Of a DNA stretch of 64,000 nucleotides, positions 18,747 to 53,850 are shown one piece after another. The position numbers and the translations under genes were made by a program. The stretch's first letter is position 1; each line of letters begins with the position of its first letter. The stretch is from assembly GCA_045631185.1 (NCBI GenBank), contig JAZQUH010000026.1, positions 12,624-76,623 of the forward strand, written 5' to 3'. The notes under the pieces were generated by a model. The model saw nothing but the letters and a program-made list of their open reading frames with translations. It ran no database searches and was not told the DNA's origin. The DNA comes from Alphaproteobacteria bacterium. GTDB taxonomy: Bacteria > Pseudomonadota > Alphaproteobacteria > CAAHEQ01 > UBA3637.

Positions 18747-18755
18747 ACTTCCTCC

Positions 18756-20990
18756 CTAATAACAATATCTATTTTGCTGGCACCACGGTATATTTTGACA
18801 TTGAGCCGATTCAGAACTGGTGAAAGGTCCTTCTTCATCTAATTTAACCAAAGAACAACTACTTCCCTTTACTCGAGTAGCATAATTTTGAAGATAATAT
18901 TTTGCATTACCAACAAAAAGTTGGCCCTTTCCTACTTCGCAGGCCCCTTCATATTGAACAACCCGTGTTTTAAGGCTCTCCGAAACATTTCTTCCTACAA
19001 ACAATGAAGCAACTGTATCCACTTGCATATCACCACTGCCATTAATAGAACCACAAACAATAGTTTGAGAATTAATTGATTTTCCTGAATCTTTTATACC
19101 TGCTAAACGAACATTCCCCGTAACCGTCAAATCGCCACCAACCGCTAAATGATTCCAGTTTCTAAAATCTTCATTTATGCTTACATTTAAATTTTTTCCC
19201 ACAAGAATCTTTCCCATATTTAAAACATTATTACCTGCCAAAATATTAATACTACCATTAGGAACTGATATTTCAGCACCAAAATCAACATGGACAGTAT
19301 ATTGATTATCCTCATCAGAATCAGCTCTCTCGTCTGAAATAATAATATCACCATTTTTTGAAATAATTTTTCCCACAGCCTGAATTTGCTCAACAGAAAT
19401 AACACCTTCTGCTTCACCAGAAGAGATAACTGATGCTGTTATATAATCATCACTTTGAACATTATGAACACGACCAGAAACAGACACATAACGTCCAACT
19501 TTAATAGGGCTTAAGACATCCCTTGACGTAAGCAAACTTTCACCAGAAGCATAGCCAAGTATTTTTACTTCAGCTGGAGCAACCAGTTCAAAGGTCATCA
19601 TTGTTAAATTTCCACCAACTTTTAAATTTGCATTTGTATAAAAAGGTCCCATTATTTTCAAATCATCTGAACAAACTATTTTTTTACTGGAAATTCCAAT
19701 TTCTGAATCAGAATCATTTTCATATGTAAAAATTTCATTACCAGAAGAATTTATTACTAAATTTTTTGCAAAAACATTACCCAAAATATATGTTTCTGAA
19801 CCAGTTTCTATTCTCAAGTTACAATCCTGAAAATCCAAATCCTCTTTTATTATTATAGGTTCTGATGAATTTTGAGCTTTCAAGACAACCGTTTCTCCAC
19901 TTAATGAAGCCTTTATATTACCATCCAACGAAATTGAGTTCACCAAAGAAGCACAATCAACATTTTTCACACACGCAGTATGATCCGAATTATGTATATA
20001 ACCATCCGAACAAGGAGTACATTTTGTTGCACCTTCTGCACTGTAATGATTACTGGGACATCTCAGACAACCAGACTGTGTTTTATAATAACCCGCCTCG
20101 CATTTTTCAGAAGAAGTGGATGAAGCGGTCTTATGCCCTGAAGAAGGAGAATAAGAAGAACGCTTAACCGAGGCTGTGGGAGCAGCAACAGAACCAATCC
20201 CCCCTCTACTTCCGGAAACAGCCCCCCCCGTTCCACTACTCGAAGATTGAGAACAAAAACCTGGACCCAAAGTTGAACAGGGAACACAAGCACCATCAAT
20301 CGAATAATAATTAGGAAGACATTCTATAGGTTCTCCATTATCATTACAATTTCTCACACCTTCTCCACAAGTTACACACTCCCCATTGAGCGGACGATAA
20401 CCTATTTGGCATTCAAAAGCTTCACCCTCACAATTTGTACTCTTTTCCGGACATGGTTTACATTTTTTATCAGAAAGATAAAAACCAAAATAACAGTTAG
20501 TAATATTAAATTCCTCATCACATTCCGCATTTGCTGGACAAGCATCAGGTTGATTTTGCATATCGGGATCACCTTTTTGAGTGCTTTTATATTTAGAAAA
20601 ATAAAAAGTTACTTCATGACGAGAAGAACATTTCGCCTTATCAACTCTGATATAATCAATCTCTGAATCAGCCAAATACTTACACAACATTGAATTACCA
20701 ACTGTCACTGTTATCCAAAAGAAATTGGCATTTTTCTTTCCTACACCATTTTCAACCTTTAAAACAGAGCCATTTGGACCTTTTTCAGTTTGAATATCCT
20801 TATCCTCGCTATGAAGCTTTACAGACGCTTCACGAGCCGACTTCACAGAAACAACATATCTAGCAATCGTACGAGCTTCAACTTTTAAACGAGCTGAATT
20901 CCACAAAAAAACTGCAAAAAAACCCAATGATAAAACCGATATTAAAACTAATAACTTCCAATTGATTTTTCCATCTTGAATTAAAAACAT
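18756..20990 (-). CDS. subfamily A paralogue A2 (744 aa) with a degenerate prepilin motif
   Basis: N-terminal 230 aa are collinear with A1 and A3 (ENGVGKKNANFFWITVT..., CxxC modules), but the motif reads DG|KINWK (Glu+5 replaced by Lys). Ser/Gly-rich linker, then a beta-helix-like C-terminal half. Confidence 0.75.
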   Translation of the reverse strand: MFLIQDGKINWKLLVLISVLSLGFFAVFLWNSARLKVEARTIARYVVSVKSAREASVKLHSEDKDIQTEKGPNGSVLKVENGVGKKNANFFWITVTVGNSMLCKYLADSEIDYIRVDKAKCSSRHEVTFYFSKYKSTQKGDPDMQNQPDACPANAECDEEFNITNCYFGFYLSDKKCKPCPEKSTNCEGEAFECQIGYRPLNGECVTCGEGVRNCNDNGEPIECLPNYYSIDGACVPCSTLGPGFCSQSSSSGTGGAVSGSRGGIGSVAAPTASVKRSSYSPSSGHKTASSTSSEKCEAGYYKTQSGCLRCPSNHYSAEGATKCTPCSDGYIHNSDHTACVKNVDCASLVNSISLDGNIKASLSGETVVLKAQNSSEPIIIKEDLDFQDCNLRIETGSETYILGNVFAKNLVINSSGNEIFTYENDSDSEIGISSKKIVCSDDLKIMGPFYTNANLKVGGNLTMMTFELVAPAEVKILGYASGESLLTSRDVLSPIKVGRYVSVSGRVHNVQSDDYITASVISSGEAEGVISVEQIQAVGKIISKNGDIIISDERADSDEDNQYTVHVDFGAEISVPNGSINILAGNNVLNMGKILVGKNLNVSINEDFRNWNHLAVGGDLTVTGNVRLAGIKDSGKSINSQTIVCGSINGSGDMQVDTVASLFVGRNVSESLKTRVVQYEGACEVGKGQLFVGNAKYYLQNYATRVKGSSCSLVKLDEEGPFTSSESAQCQNIPWCQQNRYCY
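20222..20229 (-). repeat. G8 homopolymer tract (C8 on plus strand) inside the A2 coding sequence
   Basis: gccccccccg at 20221-20230 encodes part of SSGTGGAVSG. A second C6 run lies at 20199-20204. Confidence 0.95.
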
Positions 20991-39444: not shown

Positions 39445-40527
39445 GTGAAAAAATATCTTTTAATTATCATTTTTGTTTTGTGTTTGGGCGGGATTGCTTT
39501 TTATTTATGGCATCAAACAAAGCCAAAAAAAATTGCCGATAAAAGCGAAAAAATCGTTTTGCCTGTTCATACATTAAAAAATCAATCTTTTACCTATACG
39601 GAAAGTTATATCGGTTCGGTTCAGGCCATTCAATCGGTCAATATCGTTCCTTATTTATCAGGGTTTTTGGATCAGGTTTTGGTCAAATCCGGCCAAGAAG
39701 TGATACAAGGCGAAACCCTGTTTATGTTGGATCAACGTATTCCAACGGCCGATTTGAATCAAGCCAAAGAAGCCGTTCAACAGGCCAAAGCCACACGCAC
39801 CAATGCGCTAAACTTTTATGAAAGGATGAAAAACACTCAGGAACAAGCCATATCACCCACCGAATTGGAACAGGCCCAAACAAAATTTCAAGAAGCCGAT
39901 GCGGCCTATCAAAAAGCAATTGCCGCCCAAAATCAAGCACAAACATTATATGATTACAGTGTCATTTTGGCGCCCATCAGTGGTTGGGTGGGCAACATTA
40001 CCGCCACCATCGGTGAATACTTATCCCCCAATGGGAAAGTTTTGGCGACCATTATTGCCTTTTCCCCCATTCGCCTGACCTTTTCTTTACCCTTGGCCAA
40101 CTATCCGCCCAAAATGCCGTTAAATCAAGCCACATTAGAGATTGTTTTGGAAAATGGTAAAAGTGTCTATTTTGAAAACTTTAATCTTTTACAGGATAAT
40201 CAGGCCGACAAGACAACCGATTCCATTTCAATGTTTGTGGATGTTGATAATGAAAATCGCCAGTTTGTCCCCGGTGCCTATATTGAAGTACGGTTTTTAT
40301 TCAAACAAACAGGAATTTTGGCGAATAAAGATTGGATTATGCTAACACCAAACGGGGCCGAAGCCTATGTTTTAAATCATCAGATTATTGAAAAAAGAAG
40401 TGTTCAAATTATTGGTGCCATTCAAAATCAATACTGGATAACCGGTTTAAACGAAGGCGATAAAATCATTACCGTTACCGTTTCACCCTATCAAATCGGG
40501 CAAAAGGCCGAAGGAGTTGAACAATGA
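39445..40527 (+). CDS. RND efflux periplasmic adaptor (membrane fusion protein)
   Basis: N-terminal anchor, lipoyl / alpha-hairpin pattern (ETLFMLDQR...VILAPISGWVGN). 4-nt overlap with the RND gene. Confidence 0.85.
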   Translation: MKKYLLIIIFVLCLGGIAFYLWHQTKPKKIADKSEKIVLPVHTLKNQSFTYTESYIGSVQAIQSVNIVPYLSGFLDQVLVKSGQEVIQGETLFMLDQRIPTADLNQAKEAVQQAKATRTNALNFYERMKNTQEQAISPTELEQAQTKFQEADAAYQKAIAAQNQAQTLYDYSVILAPISGWVGNITATIGEYLSPNGKVLATIIAFSPIRLTFSLPLANYPPKMPLNQATLEIVLENGKSVYFENFNLLQDNQADKTTDSISMFVDVDNENRQFVPGAYIEVRFLFKQTGILANKDWIMLTPNGAEAYVLNHQIIEKRSVQIIGAIQNQYWITGLNEGDKIITVTVSPYQIGQKAEGVEQ

Positions 40528-43500
40528 ACTTCTCATCCTTTTTCATCTCACGTCCACGCTTTGCCGGCGTTATTGCTTTGGTTATGATATTGGCGGGCAC
40601 CATTGCGGCTTTCGTTTTGCCTATTTCGCAATACCCCAATATCACGCCACCGCAAATCGTAATATCGGCCAATTATCCCGGTGCCAATGCATCCGTTTTG
40701 GCCGATACCGTTGCTACACCGATAGAAAATCAAATCAATGGTGTGGAAGGAATGTTATATATGTCGTCCACCACAACCGATACAGGGCAATATAGTTTGA
40801 CTGTTACTTTTGATGTGGGAACGGATCCGGATATTGCCCAAGTCAAAGTGGAAAACAGATTGGATAAAGCCAAACCTTTTTTGCCCGAAATTGTGGTTCA
40901 GGAAGGTTTAGATGTTGTGCAACAATCGGCCAACATTTTGGCCTTTATTACTTTAAGTTCCCCCAACGCAACTTATACACCGCTTTATTTAAGCAACTTT
41001 GCCTTTACACAAATACAAAATCCGTTTAAACGTATTGCCGGCATGGGGGATGTCAATATCTATGGTCCACAACACAGTATCCGTATTTGGTTGGATGTCA
41101 AAAAAATGAATAGCCTGCAATTGACATCCGATATGGTTATTCAGGCGATTGAATCCCAAAATCAGGTGGCCAGTGTGGGATCATTATCATCGTCCCCTGC
41201 CCCTGAAGGAACAAATCAGGTGCTTTCTTTAACCAGTAAAGGGCTGTTAAAAGACGTGGCCGATTTTGAACAAATTGTCATTCGGGCCAATTTAAACGGT
41301 GGTTTGGTACGATTAAAAGATATTGCCCGTATTGAATTGGGGGCCGACAATTATCAAATCAGCGCCAGCTATAATAACCAACCGTCCGTTGTGATGAGTT
41401 TGACACAATTGCCCAATTCCAATTCTTTGCAAATCATGAAAGATTTAAAAAAAGAAATGGCCCAATTAAAAAAGAGTTTTCCCAAAGATATGGAATTTGA
41501 AATTGTCTATGATTCCACCACCTATGTTCGGGCCAGTATTCAGGCGATTTTAATGACCCTGTTTTTAACCTTTTTATTGGTGATGGCGGTTGTTTATGTT
41601 TTTTTGCAGGATATCAAAGCCACATTGATTCCCATGATTACCATTCCTGTTTCTTTAATTGCTACTTTTATGGTGATTTACGCATTGGATTTTGATATCA
41701 ATATCTTAACTTTATTTGCCATGATTTTAGCCATCGGTTTGGTGGTGGATGATGCCATCGTTGTGGTGGAACGGGTGCAATATTTGATTCAATACAAAAA
41801 TATGTCAGCCTTACAGGCATCACATCAGGCCATGAAAGACATCACTTCTTCTGTGATTGCCACTACTTTGGTTTTAATGGCTATTTTTATTCCGGTGGGT
41901 TTAATGGCCGGCATGACAGGAAAAATATATCAACAATTTGCTGTCACTTTATCAACGGCTGTTTTCTTTTCTTCGGTCAATGCATTGACATTAAGTCCCG
42001 CCCTGTGTGCCATCTTTTTAAAAAATCCGTCAAATAAAAAATTCAAATGGAAAGTATGGTTTGATAATCTGTTAAACAAAGCAGAAAGCATATATGTGAA
42101 ATGTGTGCGTTTTTTATGCGATCACCTGAAAACCAGTTTGATAATTACTTTTTCCGTGATTGTTTTAATTGTCAGTTTATTTATTCGGGTTCCTCAGGAA
42201 TTTATCCCCCAAGAAGATCAGGGTATCATTTTGGCCAGTATTCAATTACCATCCACCGCCAGCATCAATCAAACACAAAACTTATTAAAACAAATGTCCG
42301 ATCAAGCACGCAAAATGAAAGGCATTCAATCTTTCATCAGTATTGCCGGCCACAGCATGTTATCGGCCAGCGGTGAAAATATCGCCATGGCGGCCATCGT
42401 TTTAACACCTTGGGATGAACGGGATAAATCAGGGCTTTCCATGGAAAAGATTTTAAATGAATTGAATCAAAAATTTGCCTCATCCCATCAGGCTCAAATA
42501 AACTTTTTTGCCATGCCCTCCATCCCCGGTGTCGGTAATGCCGATGGTATCAGCTTTCAAATCAATGCATTGGACCAAAATACCACACCTGATGAATTGG
42601 AAAAAGCCTTAACAAAAGTTTTGAACTTTATCAATGAAAACAAACTTTTTGCTTTTGGCTTTTCGCCATTTACGGCCGATACGCCACATGTTTATTTGGA
42701 TATCAATCGAACAAAATTATCCGCCTATCAGGTTTCCTTGGCTGATTTATTTTCTGTTTTGCAAAATAATTTAGGTTCACGATACGTCAACAACATCACC
42801 TTGGACGGACAAATCAACAAAGTCATTGTTCAGGCCGATTTTAACGCCCGACAAGACATTTCGGATATTGAAAAACTTTATGTGCCGAATGCATCGGGCC
42901 AATTGATTCAAATCCAAAACTTTTTAAGCGAAAAAATTGTTTTAATGCCCAAAATCATTTACCGTTTTAATCAATACCCCAGTGCCGGCATCACCGCCCA
43001 AACAGCGACTCATGTCAGTTCGGGAACCGCCATAAAATCATTACAGGATTTTGAAAAAAGTTTAGGCAATAAATTTTCCTTTGCCTGGACGGGACTCACC
43101 TTACAGGAAGTTGAAACTGCCGGATTGGCTTTGATTTTAATTACATTGGCACTGATTTTTTCTTATTTATTTTTGGTGGCGTTATATGAAAGTTGGTGGA
43201 TTGCCTTTGCGGTTATTTTAACCAATATCTTTGCCATAGCGGGGGCGCTTATCGGGCTTGAAATTTGGGGATTGTCATTCAGTATTTATGCCCAACTGGG
43301 GATTGTAATGCTGATAGGATTGGCCAGCAAAAACGCCATTTTAATCGTCCAATTTACCACCACTTACCAACGATCGGGCATGGATACGATTCAGGCCGCC
43401 GTTAAAGGTTCTGGCGAACGATTTCGGGCGGTTTTGATGACGGCTTTAACCTTTATATTGGGAACCTTTCCGATGGTGGTTGCCTCAGGTGCCGGTGCCG

Positions 43501-45026
43501 CCAGCCAACGTTCCATCGGAACCACCGTTTTTTGTGGAATGATTATGGCCACATTGGTGGGAATTTTATTTGTGCCGGTTTACTTTGCAGTCTTTGATAA
43601 AATATCATTAAAATTTACCCCAAAAAAGCAAATCCAAAAAATTGCCACTGTTTTATTATTGGGCGTATTTTTAACATCCTGTATGGTGGGCCCCGATTAT
43701 GAACGGCCTGAGTTTTTTACCAATTCTGAAATTGAACAGGCTTTAAATATATCGGGCGAAAAAGTCCCCGAATTTTCACCCAAAGATTTTAAAGATAAAA
43801 CGTTGGATACTTTAATTGAAAAAGCCCACCAAAACAGCCCGACATTAAAAACAGCCCTGTGGCGATTACATCAATCACGGGCATCCTTAAATATTGCGGG
43901 GGCCGATTTATTGCCCACATTGGATGCATCGGGACAATATAACTTTGTCAAAGATAGCAAAAATATGGGCTTGATTTTACAGGACAGTTATTATCGGGTT
44001 GGTCTGGACGTTGCCTGGGAATTGGATTTATTCGGTGGTAAACGCCGGCGTTTACAGGCCGAACGGGCCAATTTGAAATCAGCCCTTTATGCCGTGCAAA
44101 ATACCATGCTTTCTTTAACGGCCGAAGTTGCACGCCTTTATATTCAATCCCGCACGGTTGAAGAATTGATTCGTCAAACCAAAGAAAATATCCGATTGCA
44201 AAGTGAAATGACCGAATTGGTAAGGGATAAACAAAAAACAGGGTTGGCCAGTGAACTTTCTTTGCAACAGGCCCTTTATTTATTAAAAAATACTTCTGCC
44301 ACTTTGGCCGATTTGGAATATCAACAAACCGAAACAAACAACGCTTTGGCTTTGGCGTTGGGGGAATTGCCGGGGACAGTGGAAAAAATTATTAAAAAGG
44401 ATAAAAATTCCCTTATCACCCGTCCGTTTGATTATGACTTGGATAAAATAACGACTATCCCCAGCACGGTTTTACAAAATCGGCCGGATGTGAAAGGGGC
44501 CGAAGAAAATCTAATCGCCCAAAATGAATTGGTGGGTGTGGCCGTGGCCGATATGTTCCCCAAAATCAGCTTATCGGCTTTGTTCGGTTTTGAATCGTTG
44601 GAATGGAATAAGTTGTGGCGAAATGACAGCTTGGCGCATACCATCACACCAAACATTACTACGCCGATTTTTCATTTTGATGCTTTGCGGCAAAATGTTA
44701 AAATTCAAAAGGCGATTAAAGAAGAACAAATATTGGCCTATCAACAAACATTATTACAGGCCGCCGGTGAAATCAAAAACGCAATGGTGGCATTGATTCA
44801 AGAACGCAAACGGTATCAGGATTTACGGGAAACCTATCAACACGCCGATAATGTGGCCCAGTTGATGCAAAGCAAATATAAAAACGGTTTGATTGAATAT
44901 ACGGATGTTTTACAGGCCGAACAAAACCGTTTGCAATCCCAAATGCAAATGATTAAATCATCGGGCGCCCTTTATACCGATTTAATCCGCTTTTACAAAG
45001 CCATCGGTGGGAATGAAGCCAAATAA
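40524..45026 (+). CDS. RND (AcrB/HAE1-type) inner-membrane pump fused in frame to a NodT-type outer-membrane-factor lipoprotein (1500 aa)
   Basis: Residues 1 to about 1030 are AcrB-like (MNFSSFFISRPRFAGVIALVMILAG...). At about 1033-1053, KKQIQKIATVLLLGVFLTSC is a lipoprotein signal with lipobox LTSC, followed by MVGPDYERPEF and a full OMF. No stop and no ATG/GTG with SD between the two parts. Confidence 0.8.
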   Translation: MNFSSFFISRPRFAGVIALVMILAGTIAAFVLPISQYPNITPPQIVISANYPGANASVLADTVATPIENQINGVEGMLYMSSTTTDTGQYSLTVTFDVGTDPDIAQVKVENRLDKAKPFLPEIVVQEGLDVVQQSANILAFITLSSPNATYTPLYLSNFAFTQIQNPFKRIAGMGDVNIYGPQHSIRIWLDVKKMNSLQLTSDMVIQAIESQNQVASVGSLSSSPAPEGTNQVLSLTSKGLLKDVADFEQIVIRANLNGGLVRLKDIARIELGADNYQISASYNNQPSVVMSLTQLPNSNSLQIMKDLKKEMAQLKKSFPKDMEFEIVYDSTTYVRASIQAILMTLFLTFLLVMAVVYVFLQDIKATLIPMITIPVSLIATFMVIYALDFDINILTLFAMILAIGLVVDDAIVVVERVQYLIQYKNMSALQASHQAMKDITSSVIATTLVLMAIFIPVGLMAGMTGKIYQQFAVTLSTAVFFSSVNALTLSPALCAIFLKNPSNKKFKWKVWFDNLLNKAESIYVKCVRFLCDHLKTSLIITFSVIVLIVSLFIRVPQEFIPQEDQGIILASIQLPSTASINQTQNLLKQMSDQARKMKGIQSFISIAGHSMLSASGENIAMAAIVLTPWDERDKSGLSMEKILNELNQKFASSHQAQINFFAMPSIPGVGNADGISFQINALDQNTTPDELEKALTKVLNFINENKLFAFGFSPFTADTPHVYLDINRTKLSAYQVSLADLFSVLQNNLGSRYVNNITLDGQINKVIVQADFNARQDISDIEKLYVPNASGQLIQIQNFLSEKIVLMPKIIYRFNQYPSAGITAQTATHVSSGTAIKSLQDFEKSLGNKFSFAWTGLTLQEVETAGLALILITLALIFSYLFLVALYESWWIAFAVILTNIFAIAGALIGLEIWGLSFSIYAQLGIVMLIGLASKNAILIVQFTTTYQRSGMDTIQAAVKGSGERFRAVLMTALTFILGTFPMVVASGAGAASQRSIGTTVFCGMIMATLVGILFVPVYFAVFDKISLKFTPKKQIQKIATVLLLGVFLTSCMVGPDYERPEFFTNSEIEQALNISGEKVPEFSPKDFKDKTLDTLIEKAHQNSPTLKTALWRLHQSRASLNIAGADLLPTLDASGQYNFVKDSKNMGLILQDSYYRVGLDVAWELDLFGGKRRRLQAERANLKSALYAVQNTMLSLTAEVARLYIQSRTVEELIRQTKENIRLQSEMTELVRDKQKTGLASELSLQQALYLLKNTSATLADLEYQQTETNNALALALGELPGTVEKIIKKDKNSLITRPFDYDLDKITTIPSTVLQNRPDVKGAEENLIAQNELVGVAVADMFPKISLSALFGFESLEWNKLWRNDSLAHTITPNITTPIFHFDALRQNVKIQKAIKEEQILAYQQTLLQAAGEIKNAMVALIQERKRYQDLRETYQHADNVAQLMQSKYKNGLIEYTDVLQAEQNRLQSQMQMIKSSGALYTDLIRFYKAIGGNEAK

Positions 45027-45028
45027 GA

Positions 45029-45334
45029 TTATTGTTTCAAATCGTTTTCTTTTAACAACAATTCTCTTTGTTCATATAAATTTTCCAATTGTTCTTCCAT
45101 ACGTTCAATTCGAACGGAATAAACCTTAAGTCTTGAACGATTACCCTTTTCTTCTCCAGCTCTTTTCCCTTCCGTTTTGGCATTTTTTAATTGCGTTTCG
45201 TTTAATCTTTCTAATCTCGTTTCAAGTGATTGGATTTTTTCTTCCAAAACTTGCAATTTCGTTTTTTCTTGTGCATATGCCATATTCGTCACCAAGCACA
45301 AAGAACAAATAAATGTAAAGATTGTTTTTTTCAT
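45029..45334 (-). CDS. small secreted coiled-coil protein (101 aa)
   Basis: Signal peptide MKKTIFTFICSLCLVTNMAYA, then heptad-like E/K/L-rich sequence. An AAGGAG Shine-Dalgarno lies directly after the B2 stop. Confidence 0.6.
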   Translation of the reverse strand: MKKTIFTFICSLCLVTNMAYAQEKTKLQVLEEKIQSLETRLERLNETQLKNAKTEGKRAGEEKGNRSRLKVYSVRIERMEEQLENLYEQRELLLKENDLKQ

Positions 45335-45348
45335 ATTAGACTCCTTTT

Positions 45349-48180
45349 TTAATTTTTAATACATTTATGGGTTATTGGATCTTCACGGTATGAAGATGTA
45401 ACAACTTCAGTGGCTCTTATATCCAATTCACCAACAGCCACGTGAATGCTCGAAGACTTTGTCCCACTGACGGACCAAGATGACAATACTTTCAAACGCC
45501 AATAAGAATGAGCAGTAGGTGAATTCACCGACACAGTATAAGAAGCACCAGATTCATTGGAGGGATTTGTTCCCGTGGCAACCGTTATCCAATTTGAATT
45601 ATTATCAGAATATTGCAATTCAAAATCCGCAACACCCAAATTTCCCACACCTCCAGAACCATATATTCGATTATGAATAACAATAGAAATTATTTTTGTC
45701 GGTGTTTTCGTATACCAAGACAACCATTTATTTGATTCTTCTCGAGTATGCCAACAATCTATTTCTGGGTTGCTATTAATCTTGTCAAATGCCCGCCATG
45801 CCTTTCTGTTGCTGTCTATTTCAGAAGAAGCCTGTGTTGCAAACGCACTGACTCCAAACGTACCATTACTGGTCAATTTAGGCTGACTCCATTGAGTCTC
45901 TATTTCTCCCACACAATTGGCACAATCAGTGGTACAAGTACCATTGGAACACACTTCACACAAACCAGTACAATCTTCATTCACCGTACAGCTTTGACCA
46001 ACCGTAGCATTTAAGCATTGACATGAACCAAGGTAAGAACAATCGGCGGTTTGCGGTTCTGAGCATTTAATACATTCCGTGGATGAACAATCAGCATTTT
46101 CATTTGTATCTATACATACACCCGCACCACGAACAAAAGGTATCTTTATTTGTTGGGTATTGGTACATACCGTACAATTATAATCATTACATTCATATTG
46201 TTGATTGTTGTCCACACACACGCACGAACCGTATTTGGCACAAACAGGGGTTTGATCATCGCTACATTCAATACAATCGCCCGAATTATTGCACGCCATA
46301 TTACCACATGAACACACGCCATCGGAACAATCCAACATCCGGCCCGGATCACACGGCAAACACATTGTTTCATTGCAAACCGCCTCTTTACCCGCCGGCA
46401 AGCAAATACAAATGGAACCGTCTTCATTGCATCCTGGGTTTTCATCCGCTTCACAGAAAATACATTGTTTTTGTGAACAATATCCTGTTTTATCATTTGG
46501 AACACAGATACAATCACCCGATTGTTCACCTTCGCAACAGGTTTCTTCGGCTTGGGTACAATAGGCTGTTTCACCTTCCTCACAAACAATGCATTCACCA
46601 TGGTTTTCATAACATGAACAATAATCACCACCCTTGGTACATTCAACATTGGTGGTACCAGCATCCACACATATACATTCGGACACGTCATGTGAATATT
46701 GGGGACATTTTAATTCCTGACCTGAGGCACATTTTTTGCAAAGATCTCCATATTCACCCGTACATATAATTTCTTCACTTTCGTCTAAACATTCACATTT
46801 ACTTTCAGGAGGTTCATAATAACCACCAGAAGTCCAACAACGGGCTTTTTTATCCGACGGACATGAAATACAGGCATCACCTTCACCATAATAGTAGTCA
46901 ACGCACGCACTTTCTGCATTTTCCGGCACGCACTTGCAACCCGAAGATACAGAAGAATAACACCACATACAATTATCAACATACTCCGGACAAATGGCTT
47001 TTTGTCCCTCAGGACAAACTGTACATACATCTGATGTCAAAGAACCACAACCGCATGAATCATAACCATCAATACAATCGGCTGTTTCACCATCTTTTAT
47101 ACAAGCACACCCAGCGCCAGAACACACTCTGGTTTCACCGGGACCACAAAATGTACACACGGAATAATCATCACATTGGGTGTTTTCATCGGAATAAACA
47201 CATGCACACCCTCCCCCTGGTGTGGTCCAATCTACGGCATTTGCACAAACGGGTGTTTGATCCTGAGGACAACTCACACAACTGTGCGAACTACAATCAT
47301 AATTATTACCGCAAACGCATGGTGTGTGTTCATAGTCTCTGTAAGAATCGCTATCAGAATAACCAGAACAATGTGCTGGTCCTTGTTCGGCCGTACATTG
47401 AACACAATAAGGTGTTCCATATCCTCCAACACAATCATAGGTATCACCATCGGCAACACAAATTATTTGACCATTATCTAATTCAGATTCAACACAATCC
47501 ACGCACTGTCCCTTACGACATGTTTGCCCTTCATCACACAAAACATCAGAACAACAATCCGAAGGATTTGACAAACAGGCGGAAACGCCATTGCCTGCAT
47601 CCTCACACCAATATGCATTATTTGCTTCACACTCTTCAGGATTATTAATGCTATTCAAAAGCTTTTTCGTTGACAAATCCCGATTATATACCACTGCCAT
47701 TTTTGCCGATTCATAGCAATCATTGGCAGAGGTCATCGGGCTGCGCTCACGTGATTGCAAAGAACGAATAGTCTGATTATTACCGCCACTGCCCACAATA
47801 CCAAACACTCTTTTACAAACATTTTTGGGAACACCATCCATAATAATGGCAAATTGCCAATCATCCGGCCCCGGTGGCGTTGAAAACTTTGAGGGTTTTC
47901 CAATTGAAAAATTAATACCATCTACATAATCTGAATTTTGGGAATATTCTGACAATGTCGGTGCAAGTCCCAACATCATTGATGAAGAAACCGTTGCCGC
48001 ACGTAAAGTCACTTCATGCATCAAATTATTGGCTTTGTAACGTTCCATTGCTGTTTTATATCCCGCAACACCACCCACGGATAAAACACCCATAACAGCC
48101 AACACACTCAACGTTTCAAGCATCGTGCGACCATATTCTGTAATCTTTTTCTTTTTTAATAACGTTACAGACTTTTCCAT
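45349..48180 (-). CDS. prepilin-leader cysteine-repeat modular protein, subfamily B, member B2 (943 aa) with a C-terminal discoidin-like domain
   Basis: ...KKKKITEYG|RTMLETLSVLAVMGVLSVGGVAGY. Pilin-like module. About ten C-x2-C-...-C-x-C-[VIL] modules. C-terminal AWRAFDKINSNPEIDCWHT...FELQYSDNNSNWITVATG...YWRLKV...GELDI resembles an F5/8 type C domain. Confidence 0.8.
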   Translation of the reverse strand: MEKSVTLLKKKKITEYGRTMLETLSVLAVMGVLSVGGVAGYKTAMERYKANNLMHEVTLRAATVSSSMMLGLAPTLSEYSQNSDYVDGINFSIGKPSKFSTPPGPDDWQFAIIMDGVPKNVCKRVFGIVGSGGNNQTIRSLQSRERSPMTSANDCYESAKMAVVYNRDLSTKKLLNSINNPEECEANNAYWCEDAGNGVSACLSNPSDCCSDVLCDEGQTCRKGQCVDCVESELDNGQIICVADGDTYDCVGGYGTPYCVQCTAEQGPAHCSGYSDSDSYRDYEHTPCVCGNNYDCSSHSCVSCPQDQTPVCANAVDWTTPGGGCACVYSDENTQCDDYSVCTFCGPGETRVCSGAGCACIKDGETADCIDGYDSCGCGSLTSDVCTVCPEGQKAICPEYVDNCMWCYSSVSSGCKCVPENAESACVDYYYGEGDACISCPSDKKARCWTSGGYYEPPESKCECLDESEEIICTGEYGDLCKKCASGQELKCPQYSHDVSECICVDAGTTNVECTKGGDYCSCYENHGECIVCEEGETAYCTQAEETCCEGEQSGDCICVPNDKTGYCSQKQCIFCEADENPGCNEDGSICICLPAGKEAVCNETMCLPCDPGRMLDCSDGVCSCGNMACNNSGDCIECSDDQTPVCAKYGSCVCVDNNQQYECNDYNCTVCTNTQQIKIPFVRGAGVCIDTNENADCSSTECIKCSEPQTADCSYLGSCQCLNATVGQSCTVNEDCTGLCEVCSNGTCTTDCANCVGEIETQWSQPKLTSNGTFGVSAFATQASSEIDSNRKAWRAFDKINSNPEIDCWHTREESNKWLSWYTKTPTKIISIVIHNRIYGSGGVGNLGVADFELQYSDNNSNWITVATGTNPSNESGASYTVSVNSPTAHSYWRLKVLSSWSVSGTKSSSIHVAVGELDIRATEVVTSSYREDPITHKCIKN

Positions 48181-48203
48181 AAAAACTCTCCCTTATAGGG
48201 TGT

Positions 48204-48233
48204 ATATTATCTTACTATTTAACCTATTGTCAA
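48204..48233 (-). promoter_or_regulatory. sigma70-like promoter (minus strand) TTGACA-N18-TAATAT for B2
   Basis: Reverse complement: TTGACA (48233-48228), 18 nt spacer, TAATAT (48209-48204). Confidence 0.45.
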
Positions 48234-50167: not shown

Positions 50168-50220
50168 TAACTATCTTCTATAAATTTATAAAACAAGTGG
50201 AAAATCAACGGAGTTACATC

Positions 50221-50339
50221 TTTGGGTACAGCGTGCTTTGCGAATACCGAGCAAAACATTTAGAGGATTTCAAAAAGTTGGCGTTAAAGGTGGAACTTTT
50301 AAAATTTTAATTCAGGATGTCAACGTCCCAAATTAATTG
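50221..50339 (+). repeat. repeat R1, copy a (~119 bp)
   Basis: Aligns with 52018-52135 over the full length and with 50754-50815 over the first ~62 bp. Confidence 0.85.
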
Positions 50340-50425
50340 TCTCTTAAAATTTGACTTTCTTTTAATTTGTGGTATAATAACCTAAGAATTCAAAAATTAT
50401 TAACAGATATAAAAGGAGTTATCAA

Positions 50426-50707
50426 ATGGATTATGGACCACCATCAACCCCAAAAGATTTAGAACGTCAAAAAAGACAAGATGATAAAAGACATAAGAAA
50501 GAGAGAAAAGAAATAGAACGTAAAGCTTTGGAAGGCGTTATGTCTTTATTAGGGTGTTCTAAAGAGGAAGCAAAAGAGAAATTAAATGAAATTTGTAATG
50601 AGAGGCTAAAAGAAGCTATCAAAGAACAAAAAGCCCCATTAAGAAGAAGACCTTCTCAAATAAGTCTGCTATCTCAAGCTTTGGCAAAAAGACGTGAAGG
50701 TCGCTGA
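50426..50707 (+). CDS. hypothetical basic K/R/E-rich protein (93 aa)
   Basis: AAAGGAG Shine-Dalgarno before the ATG. Highly charged helical sequence. Lies between R1 copies. Confidence 0.5.
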   Translation: MDYGPPSTPKDLERQKRQDDKRHKKERKEIERKALEGVMSLLGCSKEEAKEKLNEICNERLKEAIKEQKAPLRRRPSQISLLSQALAKRREGR

Positions 50708-50753
50708 TATATTGACAAATGTCTCAGAATGTGATGCTATCACTCATATCTTA

Positions 50754-50815
50754 TTTGGTACAACGTGCTTAGCGAATACCGAGCCAAACATTTAAATGAT
50801 TTCAAAAAGTTAGCA
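50754..50815 (+). repeat. repeat R1, copy b (truncated)
   Basis: tttggtacaacgtgcttagcgaataccgagccaaacatttaaatgatttcaaaaagttagca. Confidence 0.8.
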
Positions 50816-50835
50816 CAACAAATATAAACTCCTAT

Positions 50836-51795
50836 TTATCTTCCATTTACTAATGGATGTGGAATTTCGCATTGATGCTTAGAGCTTAGCTTTGTTGTTA
50901 TATTTGGATTAACAACTTTTGTATTATAAAATCGAATGCCGGGTGTATTTGAAAATAAAGGGCTTATTGTCCCAACGCACTTTTGAGAAAACAATGTATA
51001 TATCATTTGTCCGAGTGTTGGTTTTTGAGCTTCATAAAATTCCTCTAATTTCTTAAATACATTCAACAAATGTGGCGGAAACTCTAGTCCAACAGGCAGA
51101 GAATCATTACCTACTGAAATTCTTTTTTTCAATACGTCAAAAGAAGTCATTCTGCTGTCAAAAAGGCGATCATCTAATTGAACAGGTGTTCTCGAGTTGA
51201 GTGGTGCATCTTTTTTCAGGCCTATATCCAAAAAATCATCCTCTCGGATTTTGCCATCTTCATGGTAAGGATAAAGAAGGATTTTATAATAATTTCTGTT
51301 CAAATCACCGGTTGGAAAAATTTCTTTTTTATCAGCTAATTGTTTAATTTCTTCTGGAGTATGTTCAGCCGGATTAAAACCACTCACTTTTCCATCAATT
51401 GATTGAAACCAATTGATTTCGCCTACCTCTGAAATCGCTGCTAAATAAGTCAGCCCATTACTCATCTTGATTTGTGAAAACATAGGACGCCCTGGCATTG
51501 CAAAAGTATTTGTATGAGGCATCGGTAAAGTGTTTTGGGGCATACAATAAAAAAAATGTAAAAACTTATCTATTGTCTTTTTTTCTAAAGGTTCTTCTGG
51601 AGTTGTATAAATTCGCTTTATTTCTTGAATGCTAGCGGGTTCTATAATTTTATCTGCAATCGTTTTTTGGGTATAGAAAGTGGCTTTCTTAAAAAATGCC
51701 CCAAAACAAAAAAGATGTTTTATATCTTCAAAAGGGCTACTCTTTTTGACACTTTTTGAAGAATTAACAGTTACGGAATAATTTGCAGTAGACAT
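50836..51795 (-). CDS. hypothetical protein (319 aa)
   Basis: Long ORF with no signal peptide and no recognisable motif. Bounded by R1b and R2a. Confidence 0.55.
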   Translation of the reverse strand: MSTANYSVTVNSSKSVKKSSPFEDIKHLFCFGAFFKKATFYTQKTIADKIIEPASIQEIKRIYTTPEEPLEKKTIDKFLHFFYCMPQNTLPMPHTNTFAMPGRPMFSQIKMSNGLTYLAAISEVGEINWFQSIDGKVSGFNPAEHTPEEIKQLADKKEIFPTGDLNRNYYKILLYPYHEDGKIREDDFLDIGLKKDAPLNSRTPVQLDDRLFDSRMTSFDVLKKRISVGNDSLPVGLEFPPHLLNVFKKLEEFYEAQKPTLGQMIYTLFSQKCVGTISPLFSNTPGIRFYNTKVVNPNITTKLSSKHQCEIPHPLVNGR

Positions 51796-51871
51796 TCAAA
51801 CAACCTTTCATTTAGGTGACAACATGATTTTAACCTAAAATATTATAAAAGTCAATTTTTTCCTGGAACTC

Positions 51872-52025
51872 TCGTCGGACTCGAACTTGAATAAGTTATT
51901 GTTTTTAAAGTACTTTGCATTTAAGAGTTCGATAAATTACGGTTTTTAAGGTTTTTTCTTACCCACACAAATGCTTGGAAACAAATAAAAAAACCACCCG
52001 ATTGGGTGGTTTTGATTTTTGGTAC
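51872..52025 (+). repeat. repeat R2, copy a (~154 bp)
   Basis: Aligns with 53401-53571 (cggact(c/t)gaacttgaataag ... tttaagagttcgataaattacgg ... gcttggaaa ... hairpin ... ttttggtac). Confidence 0.8.
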
Positions 52026-52135
52026 AGCGTGCTTAGCGAATACCGAGCCAAGAATTTAGAAGATTTCAAAAAGTTGGCATTGGAAATTGACCTCTTAAAA
52101 TTTTAATTCAGGACGTCGACATCCCAAATTAAATT
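52018..52135 (+). repeat. repeat R1, copy c (~118 bp)
   Basis: See copy a. Starts at the ttttggtac that ends R2a. Confidence 0.85.
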
Positions 52136-52157
52136 TTTTCCACCACGGAAAAAACTC

Positions 52158-53312
52158 TTACTCAAAGATACACTCTTTTCCCACATATTTACGGTTTGGA
52201 CATTTATCACATTCTTGTTTGGAGCTTTTATAATTTCTTACTGCTTCAAAATGGGTCATTCCACCGCCAGTAGTTTCTCTAAAAATATCTCCACTGCAAG
52301 GAATACAGGTTCCTGTCTCATTTTTAAAAGATTCTTTTGGACATTCTTTCAGACTACACCTATTTTGACTATATTCGCGATTAGAACATAGTAAACATTC
52401 TTCTTTAGAACTTTCGTGGTCTAGTGGGTCACCACAGCGCAGACAATATCCATCTTTATGTTTAAATTTCCCTTCTGGGCATTTTTTTAAAAAGCACATG
52501 TGTCCATCGTATTCGCGATTAGCACACTTTGAACATTCTTCTTCATCAGTACCTAATCCATACCATCCGCCTCCAAAAACGGGGTTCTTCTCTTCAGAAC
52601 ACTTAACGCAATGACAAGCTTGATAAAATAAATTATATCCAATGAATTCATTTTCTCCACATTTACATTTTTCTTTAATTTTAGCGATTAAATTTTCTTT
52701 TTTTAAACGACATTGACCATGATCTGCAATATATTCACGATTGGGACATTCATTACATACAGATTGTTGAACAAAATAATAATCTCCATCATTATCACAA
52801 GCAAAACAATCCAATCTGTCTGTTTTTATCATTCCATCTGGACATTTTTTTAAAGCACAGTATCCGTTCGTATTTTCACGATTTGGGCACAAATCGCATA
52901 TTTTGGGAGATACTTGAACAGCATTCAAAAAATTGCAATCATGGTCTGCCATCGGTTTATCTTTTAAAACACAAAAACCATCTACATATATATGTTCTGA
53001 ACATCTTCTGCACTCCTCTTCAGTTGTGATGGTATTATATGAATGGTCACAAGAGTTGCACCACCAATTATATTTTCCTAGTTGGTTTAATCCTCTGAAC
53101 TCATTTTTTTTACACTTTATAACACAGTCTCCATCTATATATTCCCGATCAGAGCACTTAATACATTCTGTTTCTTCTATATCTTGAACTCCAAAAAATG
53201 AATTACAAGATAAACATTTCCCTTTATATACAACTGGCCTATCAGCTGGGCATTCTATTGCTAAAACAGGAAACGAAAAACATAATAATAATAAAAAGAA
53301 TAATTTTTTCAT
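52158..53312 (-). CDS. Sec-signal cysteine-repeat protein (about 384 aa) built from EC-x2-C-x-NREY ... C-x-LK-x-CP-x-G modules
   Basis: MKKLFFLLLLCFSFPVLA signal peptide; the ATG at 53312 follows a GGGAG Shine-Dalgarno. About 8 repeats such as EEECSKCANREYDGHMCFLKKCPEGKFKHKDGYCLRCG. Confidence 0.7.
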   Translation of the reverse strand: MKKLFFLLLLCFSFPVLAIECPADRPVVYKGKCLSCNSFFGVQDIEETECIKCSDREYIDGDCVIKCKKNEFRGLNQLGKYNWWCNSCDHSYNTITTEEECRRCSEHIYVDGFCVLKDKPMADHDCNFLNAVQVSPKICDLCPNRENTNGYCALKKCPDGMIKTDRLDCFACDNDGDYYFVQQSVCNECPNREYIADHGQCRLKKENLIAKIKEKCKCGENEFIGYNLFYQACHCVKCSEEKNPVFGGGWYGLGTDEEECSKCANREYDGHMCFLKKCPEGKFKHKDGYCLRCGDPLDHESSKEECLLCSNREYSQNRCSLKECPKESFKNETGTCIPCSGDIFRETTGGGMTHFEAVRNYKSSKQECDKCPNRKYVGKECIFE

Positions 53313-53400
53313 AAAATCTCCCTTTCTCTTTTTCATTATCGTACCAGATTATTTCATAAAACACAATGGGTTATTTTATTTGCGATTAGATTTTGGGGTT

Positions 53401-53571
53401 CTTGCCGGACTTGAACTTGAATAAGATATTGATTTATAAAGAAATAATTTTTAAGAGTTCGATAAATTACGGAAATAGGCACTTTTGGAAGGGGTGTTTA
53501 TCGAACCCTTATAAAGGCTTGGAAAATAATAAAAAAACAACACCCAAGATGGGAGTTGTATGTTTTGGTAC
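53401..53571 (+). repeat. repeat R2, copy b (~171 bp), abutting tRNA-Leu
   Basis: See R2 copy a. Its terminal ttttggtac is the tRNA 3-prime end. Confidence 0.8.
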
Positions 53572-53652
53572 CTCCAGCCGGACTTGAACCAGCACCTTAT
53601 CACTAAGAGCAGATTTTGAGTCTGCCGCGTCTACCAATTCCGCCATGGAGGC
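53566..53652 (-). tRNA. tRNA-Leu (anticodon CAA), 87 nt with long variable arm and encoded CCA
   Basis: Reverse complement GCCTCCATGGCGGAATTGGTAGACGCGGCAGACTCAAAATCTGCTCTTAGTGATAAGGTGCTGGTTCAAGTCCGGCTGGAGGTACCA folds as a cloverleaf. It has a 7 bp acceptor stem, anticodon loop CTCAAAA and T-loop TTCAAGT. Confidence 0.93.
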
Positions 53653-53666
53653 ATAAGGTGAGTGTT

Positions 53667-53695
53667 ATTATACAAAAATTAAATCCGTCTGTCAA
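53667..53695 (-). promoter_or_regulatory. consensus sigma70-like promoter (minus strand) TTGACA-N17-TATAAT for tRNA-Leu
   Basis: Reverse complement: TTGACA (53695-53690), 17 nt spacer, TATAAT (53672-53667), 14 nt upstream of the mature tRNA 5-prime end. Confidence 0.65.
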
Positions 53696-53850
53696 GAGAT
53701 AATTTTATTTTTTTATAAAAAAATTTTTACTTGATTTTTTTGACAAAATATCCTAATCTAACCTCACCAACAAGGAGGAATACAATGGAAGATCGTTTTT
53801 AATAGCCCTATACATGGATAATTTCAATTATTAATTAAAGGATATCTGAT

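What the first reader, a model, noticed from the sequence alone, without database searches (positions are those of the whole stretch)
45029..48180. B2: pilin-like head, about ten C-x2-C ... C-x-C modules, a discoidin-like tip, and a coupled small secreted coiled-coil gene
After the pilin-like module, B2 has about ten repeats of a 35-40 aa unit. Examples are CVSCPQDQTPVC...CACV, CTFCGPGETRVC...CACI, CKKCASGQELKC...CICV, CIFCEADENPGC...CICL, CIECSDDQTPVC...CVCV and CIKCSEPQTADC...CQCL.

It ends in ~190 aa (45349-45920) whose pattern fits an F5/8 type C (discoidin) carbohydrate- or lipid-binding domain: AWRAFDKINSN...CWHT...WLSWY...IISIVIHNR...FELQYSDNNSNWITVATG...YWRLKVL...VGELDI. A rigid disulfide-rich stalk ending in a binding domain is the logic of a tip adhesin.

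A 101 aa signal-peptide coiled-coil protein (45029..45334) follows 14 nt downstream, with its Shine-Dalgarno right after the B2 stop.
Basis: partly seen in the sequence, partly recalled or inferred. Interest (0 to 1): 0.65.

Follow-up and report, generated by a model that had tools for sequence, protein, structure and literature searches.

The report
Stalked lectin-tipped type IVb pilin
An uncultured gut alphaproteobacterium encodes a 943-residue pilus subunit built from a type IVb pilin handle, a long disulfide-rich stalk and a sugar-binding (CBM32/discoidin) tip, followed by a conserved small secreted helper gene; it is a new variant of the known "modular pilin" adhesins, not a new kind of system.

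Summary
ORF 45349..48180(-) encodes a 943-aa protein.

- **Leader:** a prepilin-type leader (G17|R-T-M-L-E).
- **Head:** the model has a 51-residue alpha-1 helix and a beta-sheet. Its best PDB fold matches are all type IVb pilins (CofA, TcpA).
- **Stalk:** 11 strict plus 1-2 degenerate C-x2-C-x7-C...C-x-C modules. The protein holds 99 Cys.
- **Tip:** the C-terminal domain passes the Pfam cut-offs for F5/8 type C. Its model (pLDDT 88) superposes on galactose/GalNAc-binding CBM32 modules and on phage tail-fibre discoidin domains.
- **Small gene:** a 101-aa signal-peptide plus coiled-coil gene follows after 14 nt, with AAGGAG in the spacer. The same pairing occurs in 4 of 4 loci of the B2 clade, in different neighbourhoods, and in 0 of 8 other family loci.

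The tip behaves as an exchangeable cassette: it is 26% identical to the orthologue's tip, against 74% for the stalk.

Best reading: a modular, probably tip-located, type IVb minor pilin adhesin. It belongs to a large family with an invariant Arg at +1, which Pfam and NCBIfam pilin models do not call as pilins.

Not tested here: pilus incorporation, the ligand, co-transcription and the partner's role.

The parts
48206..48233 (-). Sigma-70-type promoter-like site, TTGACA-16-GATAAT (11 of 12 matches), about 25 nt upstream of the B2 start
   Evidence: sequence. B3 has a similar GCTTGACA...GATAGTAT site upstream. This is a consensus match only.
48186..48194 (-). Shine-Dalgarno sequence AAGGGAGAG of B2
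   Evidence: Sequence read.
45349..48180 (-). B2 ORF, 943 aa: modular type IVb-like pilin
48130..48180 (-). Class III (prepilin-type) leader, residues 1-17: MEKSVTLLKKKKITEYG, ending in Gly
   Evidence: Sequence. G(-1), R(+1) and E(+5) are invariant in 117 family members.
47632..48129 (-). Pilin module, residues 18-183: hydrophobic alpha-1N, alpha-1 helix 19-69, four-stranded sheet, conserved Cys122-Cys155 pair
   Evidence: AlphaFold model at pLDDT 76.8. Foldseek top hits are CofA 9iuf (E 1.2e-3) and TcpA 8uhf. The Cys pair is nearly invariant.
47407..47631 (-). Clade-specific Cys-rich neck, residues 184-258 (YWCED...GGYGTPYC); the best-conserved part within the B2 clade
   Evidence: Identity to P0003 is 64% here, against 42-44% in the head and 36% in the stalk.
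45913..47406 (-). Disulfide-rich stalk, residues 259-756: 11 strict C-x2-C-x7-C-x(n)-C-x-C modules plus degenerate ones
   Evidence: An HMM built from the modules finds 11 copies in B2 and none in shuffled sequences or the other Cys-rich proteins of the window.
45352..45912 (-). Tip, residues 757-943: F5/8 type C (CBM32-like) beta-sandwich and a conserved tail YREDPITHKC; only two Cys (809, 940)
   Evidence: Pfam. AlphaFold model at pLDDT 87.9. Foldseek against PDB finds CBM32 and F-lectins. Foldseek against BFVD finds phage F5/8 type C proteins.
45335..45348 (-). 14-nt spacer holding the Shine-Dalgarno AAGGAG of the small gene; no promoter-like or terminator-like site
45029..45334 (-). Small partner ORF, 101 aa: Sec signal peptide (residues 1-21, AYA|Q) and a helix-loop-helix coiled-coil region
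   Evidence: A profile of the four partners matches only generic coiled coils and helical bundles in the PDB.

Best explanation
B2 is a modular type IVb-like pilin that most likely acts as a pilus-tip adhesin.

Proposed steps, with their status:
1. Inferred from the motif: the leader is cut after Gly17 by a prepilin peptidase. This leaves R-T-M-L-E and a hydrophobic alpha-1N helix that anchors the protein in the inner membrane.
2. Inferred: about 49 disulfides form in the periplasm. They rigidify a stalk of roughly 570 residues made of 11-13 six-cysteine modules.
3. Inferred by analogy with the minor pilins CofB and TcpB and with published modular pilins: the pilin module is taken up by a type IVb pilus machine encoded elsewhere. 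Uptake is probably at the tip, because the C-terminal mass is too bulky for the shaft.
4. The fold is shown, the ligand is not: the CBM32/discoidin domain at the far end binds a glycan. Candidates are host mucin, diet or another microbe.

The tip is an exchangeable cassette shared with short pilins of the same family and with phage tail-fibre proteins.

The small gene that follows encodes a Sec-exported coiled-coil protein and is probably translated from the same mRNA. It is specific to the B2 clade. I take it to be a periplasmic or secreted assembly or partner factor for this clade's head and neck, not for the tip. Its actual role is unknown, and I put about 0.3 on this particular role.
For: **Head**
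- G17|RTMLE followed by a hydrophobic helix.
- The model has alpha-1 (residues 19-69) and a beta-sheet.
- The top nine PDB fold hits are all type IVb pilins, at probability 0.97-1.00 for the first seven.
- The best PDB sequence hit is TcpA alpha-1, though not significant at E 0.52.
- phrog_3433 'pilin' matches at E 0.002.
- Paralogue B3 hits the PpdD model at E 8e-4.
- The Cys122-Cys155 pair is conserved.

**Tip**
- Two Pfam discoidin models score above cut-off.
- The pLDDT-88 model matches Gal/GalNAc/LacNAc-binding CBM32 modules with TM up to 0.77.
- The same subfamily occurs in phage tail proteins: phrog_17517 and phrog_16348, BFVD, 16 viral contigs, and a 550-aa ORF that follows a possible tail-fibre gene (judged by eye, not searched) in L091.

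**Modularity**
- The same head and tip occur without a stalk in 350-470-aa proteins.
- The same head and stalk occur with another tip in P0003 and P0004.
- Against P0002 the tip is 26% identical and the stalk 74%.

**Partner**
- Present in 4 of 4 clade loci, with a 12-14 nt spacer and a Shine-Dalgarno sequence.
- Absent from 8 of 8 other loci.

**Published precedent**
- Modular pilins: PMC8179133.
- CofB with CofJ: PMC6048534.
Against: - No pilus machine, prepilin peptidase or major pilin lies in the window.
- B2 does not match TIGR02532 / IPR012902 or any Pfam pilin family.
- Arg at +1 has no characterised precedent that I know of.
- The Foldseek E-values for the head are modest (1e-3, TM 0.44).
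- Stalk and neck together hold 95 Cys, an odd number, so at least one is unpaired or the domain borders are off.
- No expression data cover the junction.
- The CofB lectin domain proved to bind a protein rather than a sugar (PMC6048534), so a lectin fold does not prove glycan binding.
Confidence: 0.68

Rival explanations
1. The prepilin-like N-terminus is only an export or anchoring signal. B2 would be a pseudopilin-like or membrane-anchored surface protein that is never polymerised into an extended pilus. It might be a substrate or cap of a short type II-secretion-like pseudopilus, or a cell-bound adhesin.
For: - The genes of this family are scattered singly among housekeeping genes, far from any machine.
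- There are hundreds of family clusters with very diverse C-termini: 860 hits at E<=1e-10, counting hits to the head and hits to the tip domain alone.
- Arg at +1 is atypical.
- No pilin HMM is matched.
Against: - The head's fold matches are to true type IVb pilins of assembled filaments, not to pseudopilins.
- Glu at +5 and the full alpha-1 helix are kept invariant. That is expected only if the helix packs into a filament core.
- A protein anchored in the inner membrane could not present its tip outside a diderm cell without a secretin.
Confidence: 0.17
2. The small downstream protein is a CofJ/TcpF-type secreted colonisation factor. It would be exported by the pilus and docked on the tip of a B2 trimer.
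For: - It has a Sec signal peptide and is encoded in cis with a type IVb-like minor pilin that carries a lectin-fold tip.
- There is published precedent in PMC6048534.
Against: - The partner tracks the head and neck clade, not the tip type. It is present with discoidin tips and with non-discoidin tips, and absent from short pilins that carry the same tip.
- Its mature N-terminus is a charged helix without the key aromatic residue of CofJ and TcpF.
- At 79-123 residues it is all coiled coil, not a globular protein like CofJ (about 35 kDa by my own recollection).
Confidence: 0.1
3. The small ORF is an independent envelope coiled-coil protein, similar to Lpp or YqhH, that merely sits next to B2.
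For: - Weak NCBIfam similarity to YqhH, E 0.046.
- Generic coiled-coil composition.
Against: - The pairing is kept in four loci with unrelated flanks, while the sequence diverges to 21-46% identity.
- It has no lipobox.
- There is no promoter-like site in the 14-nt spacer.
Confidence: 0.08

Closest known systems
Modular type IV pilins (Streptococcus sanguinis PilB with a vWA module, PilC with a lectin module; Raynaud et al. 2021, PMC8179133)
   Same: An N-terminal pilin module carries a grafted ligand-binding module and is predicted to sit at the tip. The paper's InterPro census already lists one IPR012902-IPR000421 (pilin plus F5/8 type C) protein.
   Different: - B2's head is type IVb-like and has Arg at +1.
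- It is not recognised by the IPR012902/TIGR02532 signature.
- A stalk of about 570 residues, 11-13 modules and roughly 49 disulfides separates handle and tip.
- The organism is a diderm gut alphaproteobacterium.
- A dedicated small partner gene follows.
Type IVb minor pilins CofB (ETEC CFA/III) and TcpB (V. cholerae TCP), with their secreted partners CofJ and TcpF (PMC6048534, PMC5207764)
   Same: A type IVb pilin domain is joined by a linker to beta-rich C-terminal domains that end in a lectin fold. They sit at the tip and have a Sec-exported partner encoded in cis.
   Different: - CofB's tip is an H-type lectin, whereas B2's is CBM32/discoidin.
- CofB has a beta-repeat domain instead of a Cys-rich stalk.
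- cofB lies inside the pilus operon, whereas B2 stands alone.
- B2's partner is a small coiled coil without the aromatic N-terminal hook.
R64 thin-pilus adhesin PilV with shufflon-selected C-termini (own knowledge, not checked here)
   Same: It is a type IVb minor pilin whose exchangeable C-terminal segment sets binding specificity.
   Different: R64 swaps tips by site-specific inversion at one locus. Here the tips differ between paralogues and orthologues, and no shufflon is seen.
CBM32 / F5/8 type C modules of gut glycosidases (C. perfringens GH89, NanJ, GH84C) and phage tail-fibre discoidin domains
   Same: The fold is the same and the Pfam family is matched.
   Different: Here the module is attached to a pilin rather than to an enzyme or a phage fibre. 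Sequence identity is only 15-28%. The ligand is unknown.

Membership tests
Type IV pilin (class III signal peptide protein) | Short basic leader ending in Gly, Glu at +5, and about 20 hydrophobic residues that begin a roughly 50-residue alpha-1 helix | tested here: met
   The N-terminus reads MEKSVTLLKKKKITEYG|RTMLETLSVLAVMGVLSVGGVAGY. The model has a helix at residues 19-69. G, R and E are invariant in 117 relatives.
Type IV pilin (class III signal peptide protein) | Match to the N-methylation-site signature (TIGR02532 / IPR012902; Pfam N_methyl) | tested here: not met
   B2 has no NCBIfam hit at E<=0.1. It has no Pfam pilin family at E<=1. None of 117 relatives matches one at E<=0.001. The +1 residue is Arg, not Phe, Met or Leu.
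Type IV pilin (class III signal peptide protein) | Alpha/beta-roll globular head with an antiparallel sheet and a disulfide-bounded region | tested here: met
   The model has four strands and the Cys122/Cys155 pair. The Foldseek top nine are type IVb pilins, best E 1.2e-3, TM 0.44.
Type IV pilin (class III signal peptide protein) | Processing by a prepilin peptidase and polymerisation by a type IV pilus machine | not testable with these tools
   The whole-genome search was shut. An earlier unchecked note (e1-4732505) reports a BFP-like type IVb operon elsewhere in the genome.
Type IVb minor pilin of the CofB/TcpB type | Encoded inside the type IVb pilus operon | tested here: not met
   B2's neighbours are an RND-OMF efflux gene and an ABC-F gene. 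Orthologues sit in unrelated contexts.
Type IVb minor pilin of the CofB/TcpB type | C-terminal H-type lectin or beta-sandwich domain that trimerises at the tip | tested here: inconclusive
   The tip is a beta-sandwich of the CBM32/discoidin type, not the H-type. The oligomeric state was not tested.
F5/8 type C (discoidin) / CBM32 | Score above the Pfam gathering threshold | tested here: met
   PF22633 scores 39.0 against 27.8. PF00754 scores 35.0 against 28.2.
F5/8 type C (discoidin) / CBM32 | Galactose-binding-domain-like beta-sandwich fold | tested here: met
   Model at pLDDT 87.9 and pTM 0.82. There are 219 PDB matches at E<=1e-3, led by CBM32 modules.
F5/8 type C (discoidin) / CBM32 | Carbohydrate (or lipid) binding | not testable with these tools
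   This needs glycan arrays or ITC on the recombinant domain.
CofJ/TcpF-type secreted partner (for the small ORF) | Flexible mature N-terminus with a key aromatic residue that docks into the minor-pilin trimer | tested here: not met
   The mature N-terminus QEKTKLQVLEEKIQSLETRLERL has no aromatic residue and is helical in character. The defining feature is taken from PMC6048534.

The most novel reading that the evidence does not exclude
The small coiled-coil protein could be a dedicated oligomerisation or assembly chaperone, or a tip cap, for stalked pilins of the B2 clade. It would dock on the unusually conserved Cys-rich neck, much as phage tail-fibre assembly proteins are encoded just downstream of their fibre gene. 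In this reading the pilin family and gut phages draw receptor-binding discoidin cassettes from a common pool. A single type IVb pilus could then be re-armed with phage-like receptor-binding tips.
Probability: 0.15. Interest if true: 0.7.

Novelty: new variant of a known kind. Interest (0 to 1): 0.5.

Why it matters
The gut alphaproteobacteria that carry this gene are uncultured, and as far as I know little is known about them. They appear widely in MAGs from ruminant and human guts.

B2 shows that they hold a large family of type IVb-like pilins with an invariant Arg at +1. The search returned 860 cluster representatives at E<=1e-10, counting hits to the head and hits to the tip domain alone. 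Pfam and NCBIfam pilin models do not call these proteins as pilins, so a census built on the IPR012902 signature would probably miss them.

B2 is an extreme case of the "handle plus functional module" design:
- about 49 disulfides in one pilin;
- a CBM32-type tip that has been swapped between orthologues and is shared with phage tail fibres;
- a clade-specific secreted partner.

It offers concrete, testable material on how one pilus machine can present many adhesins, on what these bacteria stick to in the gut, and on how very long disulfide-rich pilins are assembled.

Tried and rejected
**Searches that were closed or came back empty**
- Whole-genome search for a prepilin peptidase and pilus machine: the tool was shut.
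- GTDB genome-contig scan with the B2 alignment: no relative found.
- JGI metagenome scan: one 1.2-kb fragment only.
- RNA runs across the B2/small-gene junction: none. The one metatranscriptome (X20) holds only internal B2 pieces.
- Tandem Repeats Finder: no DNA-level repeat.
- Literature search for this lineage's pili or for pilin-discoidin proteins: nothing specific.

**Weak or non-significant matches**
- PDB sequence searches for head and tip: only non-significant hits. TcpA scored E 0.52 and the F-lectin FBP32 scored E 0.067.
- tblastn of the tip against cultured-phage genomes: only four weak partial Pseudomonas-phage hits.

**Readings considered and dropped**
- F-type lectin membership: dropped, because I see no fucose-binding His/Arg motif of the HX(24)RGDCCGER type. 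The motif is recalled from my own knowledge and was checked by eye only.
- The small ORF as a lipoprotein: rejected, because no lipobox is conserved.
- The small ORF linked to the stalk module type: rejected, because P0010, P0016 and P0020 carry B2-type modules but no partner.
- The small ORF linked to the discoidin tip: rejected, because P0005, P0007 and P0153 have the tip but no partner.
- Positive selection on the stalk: not supported. dN/dS is 0.26, although all 26 strain differences lie there.
Full report
**1. What is there**

The window carries an intact 943-codon ORF at 45349..48180 on the minus strand and a 101-codon ORF at 45029..45334 on the same strand.
- B2 is 10.5% cysteine (99 Cys). 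Housekeeping ORFs of the window have 0.3-2.6%.
- Upstream lies a near-consensus sigma-70-type site, TTGACA-16-GATAAT, at 48233-48206. The Shine-Dalgarno sequence AAGGGAGAG follows.
- The B2 stop codon is followed by AAAAAGGAGTCTAAT and then the ATG of the small gene. The spacer is 14 nt and has no promoter-like or terminator-like site.
- The small gene's stop lies 2 nt from the stop of the convergent RND gene.

**2. Organism**

NusA of the window is 96% identical to that of an "Alphaproteobacteria bacterium" MAG (SIG60). It is 70-92% identical to dozens of MAGs from cattle, sheep, goat, yak, rabbit and human guts. Named relatives (Micavibrio, Holosporales) reach only 54-57%. The runs that hold the B2 sequence are bovine-gut, gut and faeces metagenomes. 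The host is therefore an uncultured gut alphaproteobacterium.

**3. Head**

The N-terminus reads MEKSVTLLKKKKITEYG|RTMLETLSVLAVMGVLSVGGVAGY. It has a basic leader ending in Gly, Glu at +5 and a hydrophobic helix.
- An AlphaFold2 model of residues 1-215 was built on a 16-sequence alignment. Mean pLDDT is 76.8, and above 85 for most of the globular part.
- The model shows one continuous helix at 19-69, then four strands and a short helix.
- Foldseek against the PDB returns only type IVb pilins in the first nine places. These are CofA in the ETEC filament (9iuf, E 1.2e-3), TcpA in the V. cholerae TCP filament (8uhf), and CofA crystals. Salmonella Typhi PilS follows further down.
- The best PDB sequence hit, although not significant (E 0.52), is the alpha-1 segment of TcpA.
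- Cys122 and Cys155 are nearly invariant across relatives. This fits a pilin-type disulfide.
- B2 does not match TIGR02532 or any Pfam pilin model. The +1 residue is Arg.
- In 129 of 160 collected relatives the motif is G-R-[ST]-[ML]-x-E. G, R and E are invariant in a 117-member alignment.

**4. Stalk**

Between residues 259 and 722 there are eleven strict modules C-x2-C-x7-C-x(n)-C-x-C. Each is usually preceded by one more Cys 4-6 residues upstream. One degenerate copy lies at 669 and one terminal knot at 741-756.
- Spacing is 29-50 residues.
- There is no nucleotide-level repeat.
- An HMM built from the eleven modules finds 11 copies in B2, P0001 and P0002, and 5-8 copies in P0003, P0004, P0010, P0016, P0020 and P0100. 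It finds none in the other Cys-rich proteins of the window (A1-A3, B1, the Sec-type protein at 52158..53336) and none in shuffled sequences.
- Pfam has no model for the module.
- The region 184-756 holds 95 Cys, an odd number. At least one is therefore unpaired or pairs outside the region.

**5. Tip**

Residues 783-903 score above the gathering cut-offs of PF22633 (39.0 against 27.8) and PF00754 (35.0 against 28.2).
- A model of residues 745-943, built on nine sequences, has pLDDT 87.9 and pTM 0.82 and is a beta-sandwich.
- Foldseek gives 219 PDB matches at E<=1e-3. They are led by CBM32 modules of C. perfringens GH89, NanJ, GH31 and GH84C bound to galactose, Tn antigen or LacNAc. F-type lectins and the galactose oxidase N-domain follow (TM on target up to 0.77).
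- The same sequence subfamily (W-x-QP-x-LTSNG...AWRAFD...DCWHS...WLSWYT...YWR) occurs in tandem in proteins that match phrog_17517 "tail protein" and phrog_16348.
- It also occurs in 16 IMG/VR contigs. One is a 550-aa ORF that directly follows an ORF I took, by eye only, for a tail-fibre gene.
- The best BFVD hit is a Siphoviridae "F5/8 type C domain" protein (E 4e-13).
- The fold and its family are established. The ligand is not.

**6. Modularity**

A profile search of 1.84 billion cluster representatives gave 4914 hits at E<=1e-3 and 860 at E<=1e-10.
- The head is the N-terminal module of proteins of 135-1044 aa.
- The B2-type tip closes 350-470-aa proteins that have the same head and only a short Cys knot (P0005-P0013, P0153).
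- P0010 has the head and 8 or more stalk modules but no tip.
- P0003 and P0004 have head, neck and stalk, then a different tip that Pfam does not recognise.
- Against its 65%-identical orthologue P0002, B2 is 59-65% identical in the head, 74-77% in neck and stalk and 76% in the last 17 residues, but only 26% in the tip.
- B2's tip is 52-53% identical to the tips of the short pilins P0153 and P0005. The tip has therefore been exchanged as a cassette.
- Between the window and a 97%-identical strain (L004), all 26 amino-acid differences lie in neck and stalk. None lies in head or tip, and every Cys is kept. Stalk dN/dS is 0.26.
- Of 117 head-bearing relatives, Pfam recognises a domain in very few. 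Thirteen have a discoidin domain.

**7. The small gene**

| Pilin | Locus | Partner length | Spacer |
|---|---|---|---|
| B2 / P0001 | window, L004 | 101 aa | 14 nt |
| P0002 | L001, L002 | 101 aa | 11 nt |
| P0003 | L003 | 122 aa | 12 nt |
| P0004 | L089, L090 | 145 aa | 13 nt |

- All four partners have MKK or MFK followed by a hydrophobic signal peptide, then a charged, Cys-poor helical region. Each spacer holds a Shine-Dalgarno sequence.
- The flanking genes of the four loci are unrelated.
- The L001-L003 and L089-L090 contigs come from the same two samples, so they may be paralogues in one related genome.
- Partner sequences diverge quickly (46% and 21% identity to the window's copy).
- A profile of them matches only generic coiled coils and helical bundles in the PDB.
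- The partner is absent downstream of three short discoidin-tipped pilins, of three pilins with B2-type stalk modules (where terminators follow instead), and of B1 and B3 in the window.
- It therefore tracks the B2 clade. That clade is defined by its head and by the strongly conserved neck (YWCED...GGYGTPYC...SDSDSYRDYEHTPCVCG). The neck is 64% identical even to P0003, where the head is 42-44%. The partner tracks neither the tip nor the module type.
- Co-transcription could not be tested. Metatranscriptome X20 holds three short contigs inside B2 and none over the junction, and no RNA run was found for the junction.

**8. Mechanism**

Shown:
- the architecture;
- the folds of head and tip;
- family-wide conservation of G(-1), R(+1) and E(+5);
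- tip-cassette exchange;
- the conserved gene pair.

Inferred:
- cleavage by a prepilin peptidase;
- oxidative folding in the periplasm;
- uptake by a type IVb machine encoded elsewhere. An earlier unchecked note of this scan, e1-4732505, reports a BFP-like operon without pilins in the same genome. I could not verify it because the genome search was shut;
- location at the tip, because about 900 residues hang from the pilin module. This is the argument made for modular pilins in PMC8179133 and shown for CofB in PMC6048534;
- glycan binding by the tip.

The partner is most simply a periplasmic or secreted factor that acts on the clade-specific head and neck, in assembly, oligomerisation or capping. 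A CofJ-like docking on the tip is unlikely, for the reasons given under the rival explanations.

**9. Comparison and novelty**

B2 fits the published concept of modular type IV pilins. The InterPro census in that paper already lists one pilin-F5/8 type C architecture. It also parallels the type IVb minor pilins with lectin-fold tips and cis-encoded secreted partners.

It differs in these respects:
- the Arg at +1 and a head that Pfam and NCBIfam pilin models do not match;
- a disulfide stalk of 11-13 modules;
- a CBM32-type tip related to phage tail fibres, rather than an H-type lectin;
- a stand-alone genomic position;
- a small coiled-coil partner.

I rate it a new variant of a known kind. 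Earlier notes from the same genome (e1-3525985, e1-4732508, e1-1066763) describe sister proteins and reach the same general reading. This finding adds the discoidin tip, the cassette swap, the phage link and the clade-specific partner gene.

Noticed in passing
window 40524-45026 (+): A 1500-aa ORF fuses a complete AcrB-type RND pump (PF00873, 978 bits) in frame to an outer-membrane factor (PF02321). Its stop lies 2 nt from the stop of the convergent small gene. The same fusion is present in strain L004.
   Followed up: no
window 15636-20990, 27809-28996, 36721-39366, 56566-57651: Five more genes with pilin-type N-termini lie in the same 64 kb. There are two head types. A-type heads start G(K/R)(T/S)(L/I)(I/L)E, although the 18756..20990 ORF has no clear G-x-x-x-x-E motif and was grouped here only by its overall look. 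B-type heads start GRSMVE. Their Cys-rich bodies differ from B2's: none is hit by the B2 module HMM.
   Followed up: partly
window 45349-48180 compared with L004 8001-10832: All 26 amino-acid differences between the two strains fall in neck and stalk (residues 214-735). Synonymous divergence there (0.085) is 3-5 times that of head and tip. This hints at recombination or relaxed constraint confined to the stalk.
   Followed up: partly
window 45322 and 45353 (run X2): In one gut metagenome, two contigs match up to the B2-stop/small-gene-start junction and then run on into unlike sequence. This may be a strain variant with a breakpoint at the module border, or an assembly artefact (table 7).
   Followed up: no
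L003 4609-6655: Next to the P0003 pilin-partner pair lie a thioredoxin gene and a soluble lytic transglycosylase gene. Both could plausibly help a disulfide-rich pilin that must cross the envelope.
   Followed up: no
L004 595-4479 compared with window 50197-53700: Beyond the shared ABC-F gene and the 319-aa gene, strain L004 carries a serine recombinase and two ParB/RepB genes. The window has a Cys-repeat secreted protein and tRNA-Leu at that place. This flank is a variable island between strains.
   Followed up: no
L108 5170-5550; L110 1-353 and 2090-2460: Pilin genes of related MAGs are flanked by copies of a short repeat that translates to ...RLLRHFIPRNDG.... Gene callers turn it into spurious small ORFs.
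   Followed up: no
P0015 (1044 aa): In this protein with an A-type pilin head, the B2-type discoidin domain sits in the middle, between two copies of another roughly 230-aa domain. The tip cassette therefore also moves between the two head families.
   Followed up: no
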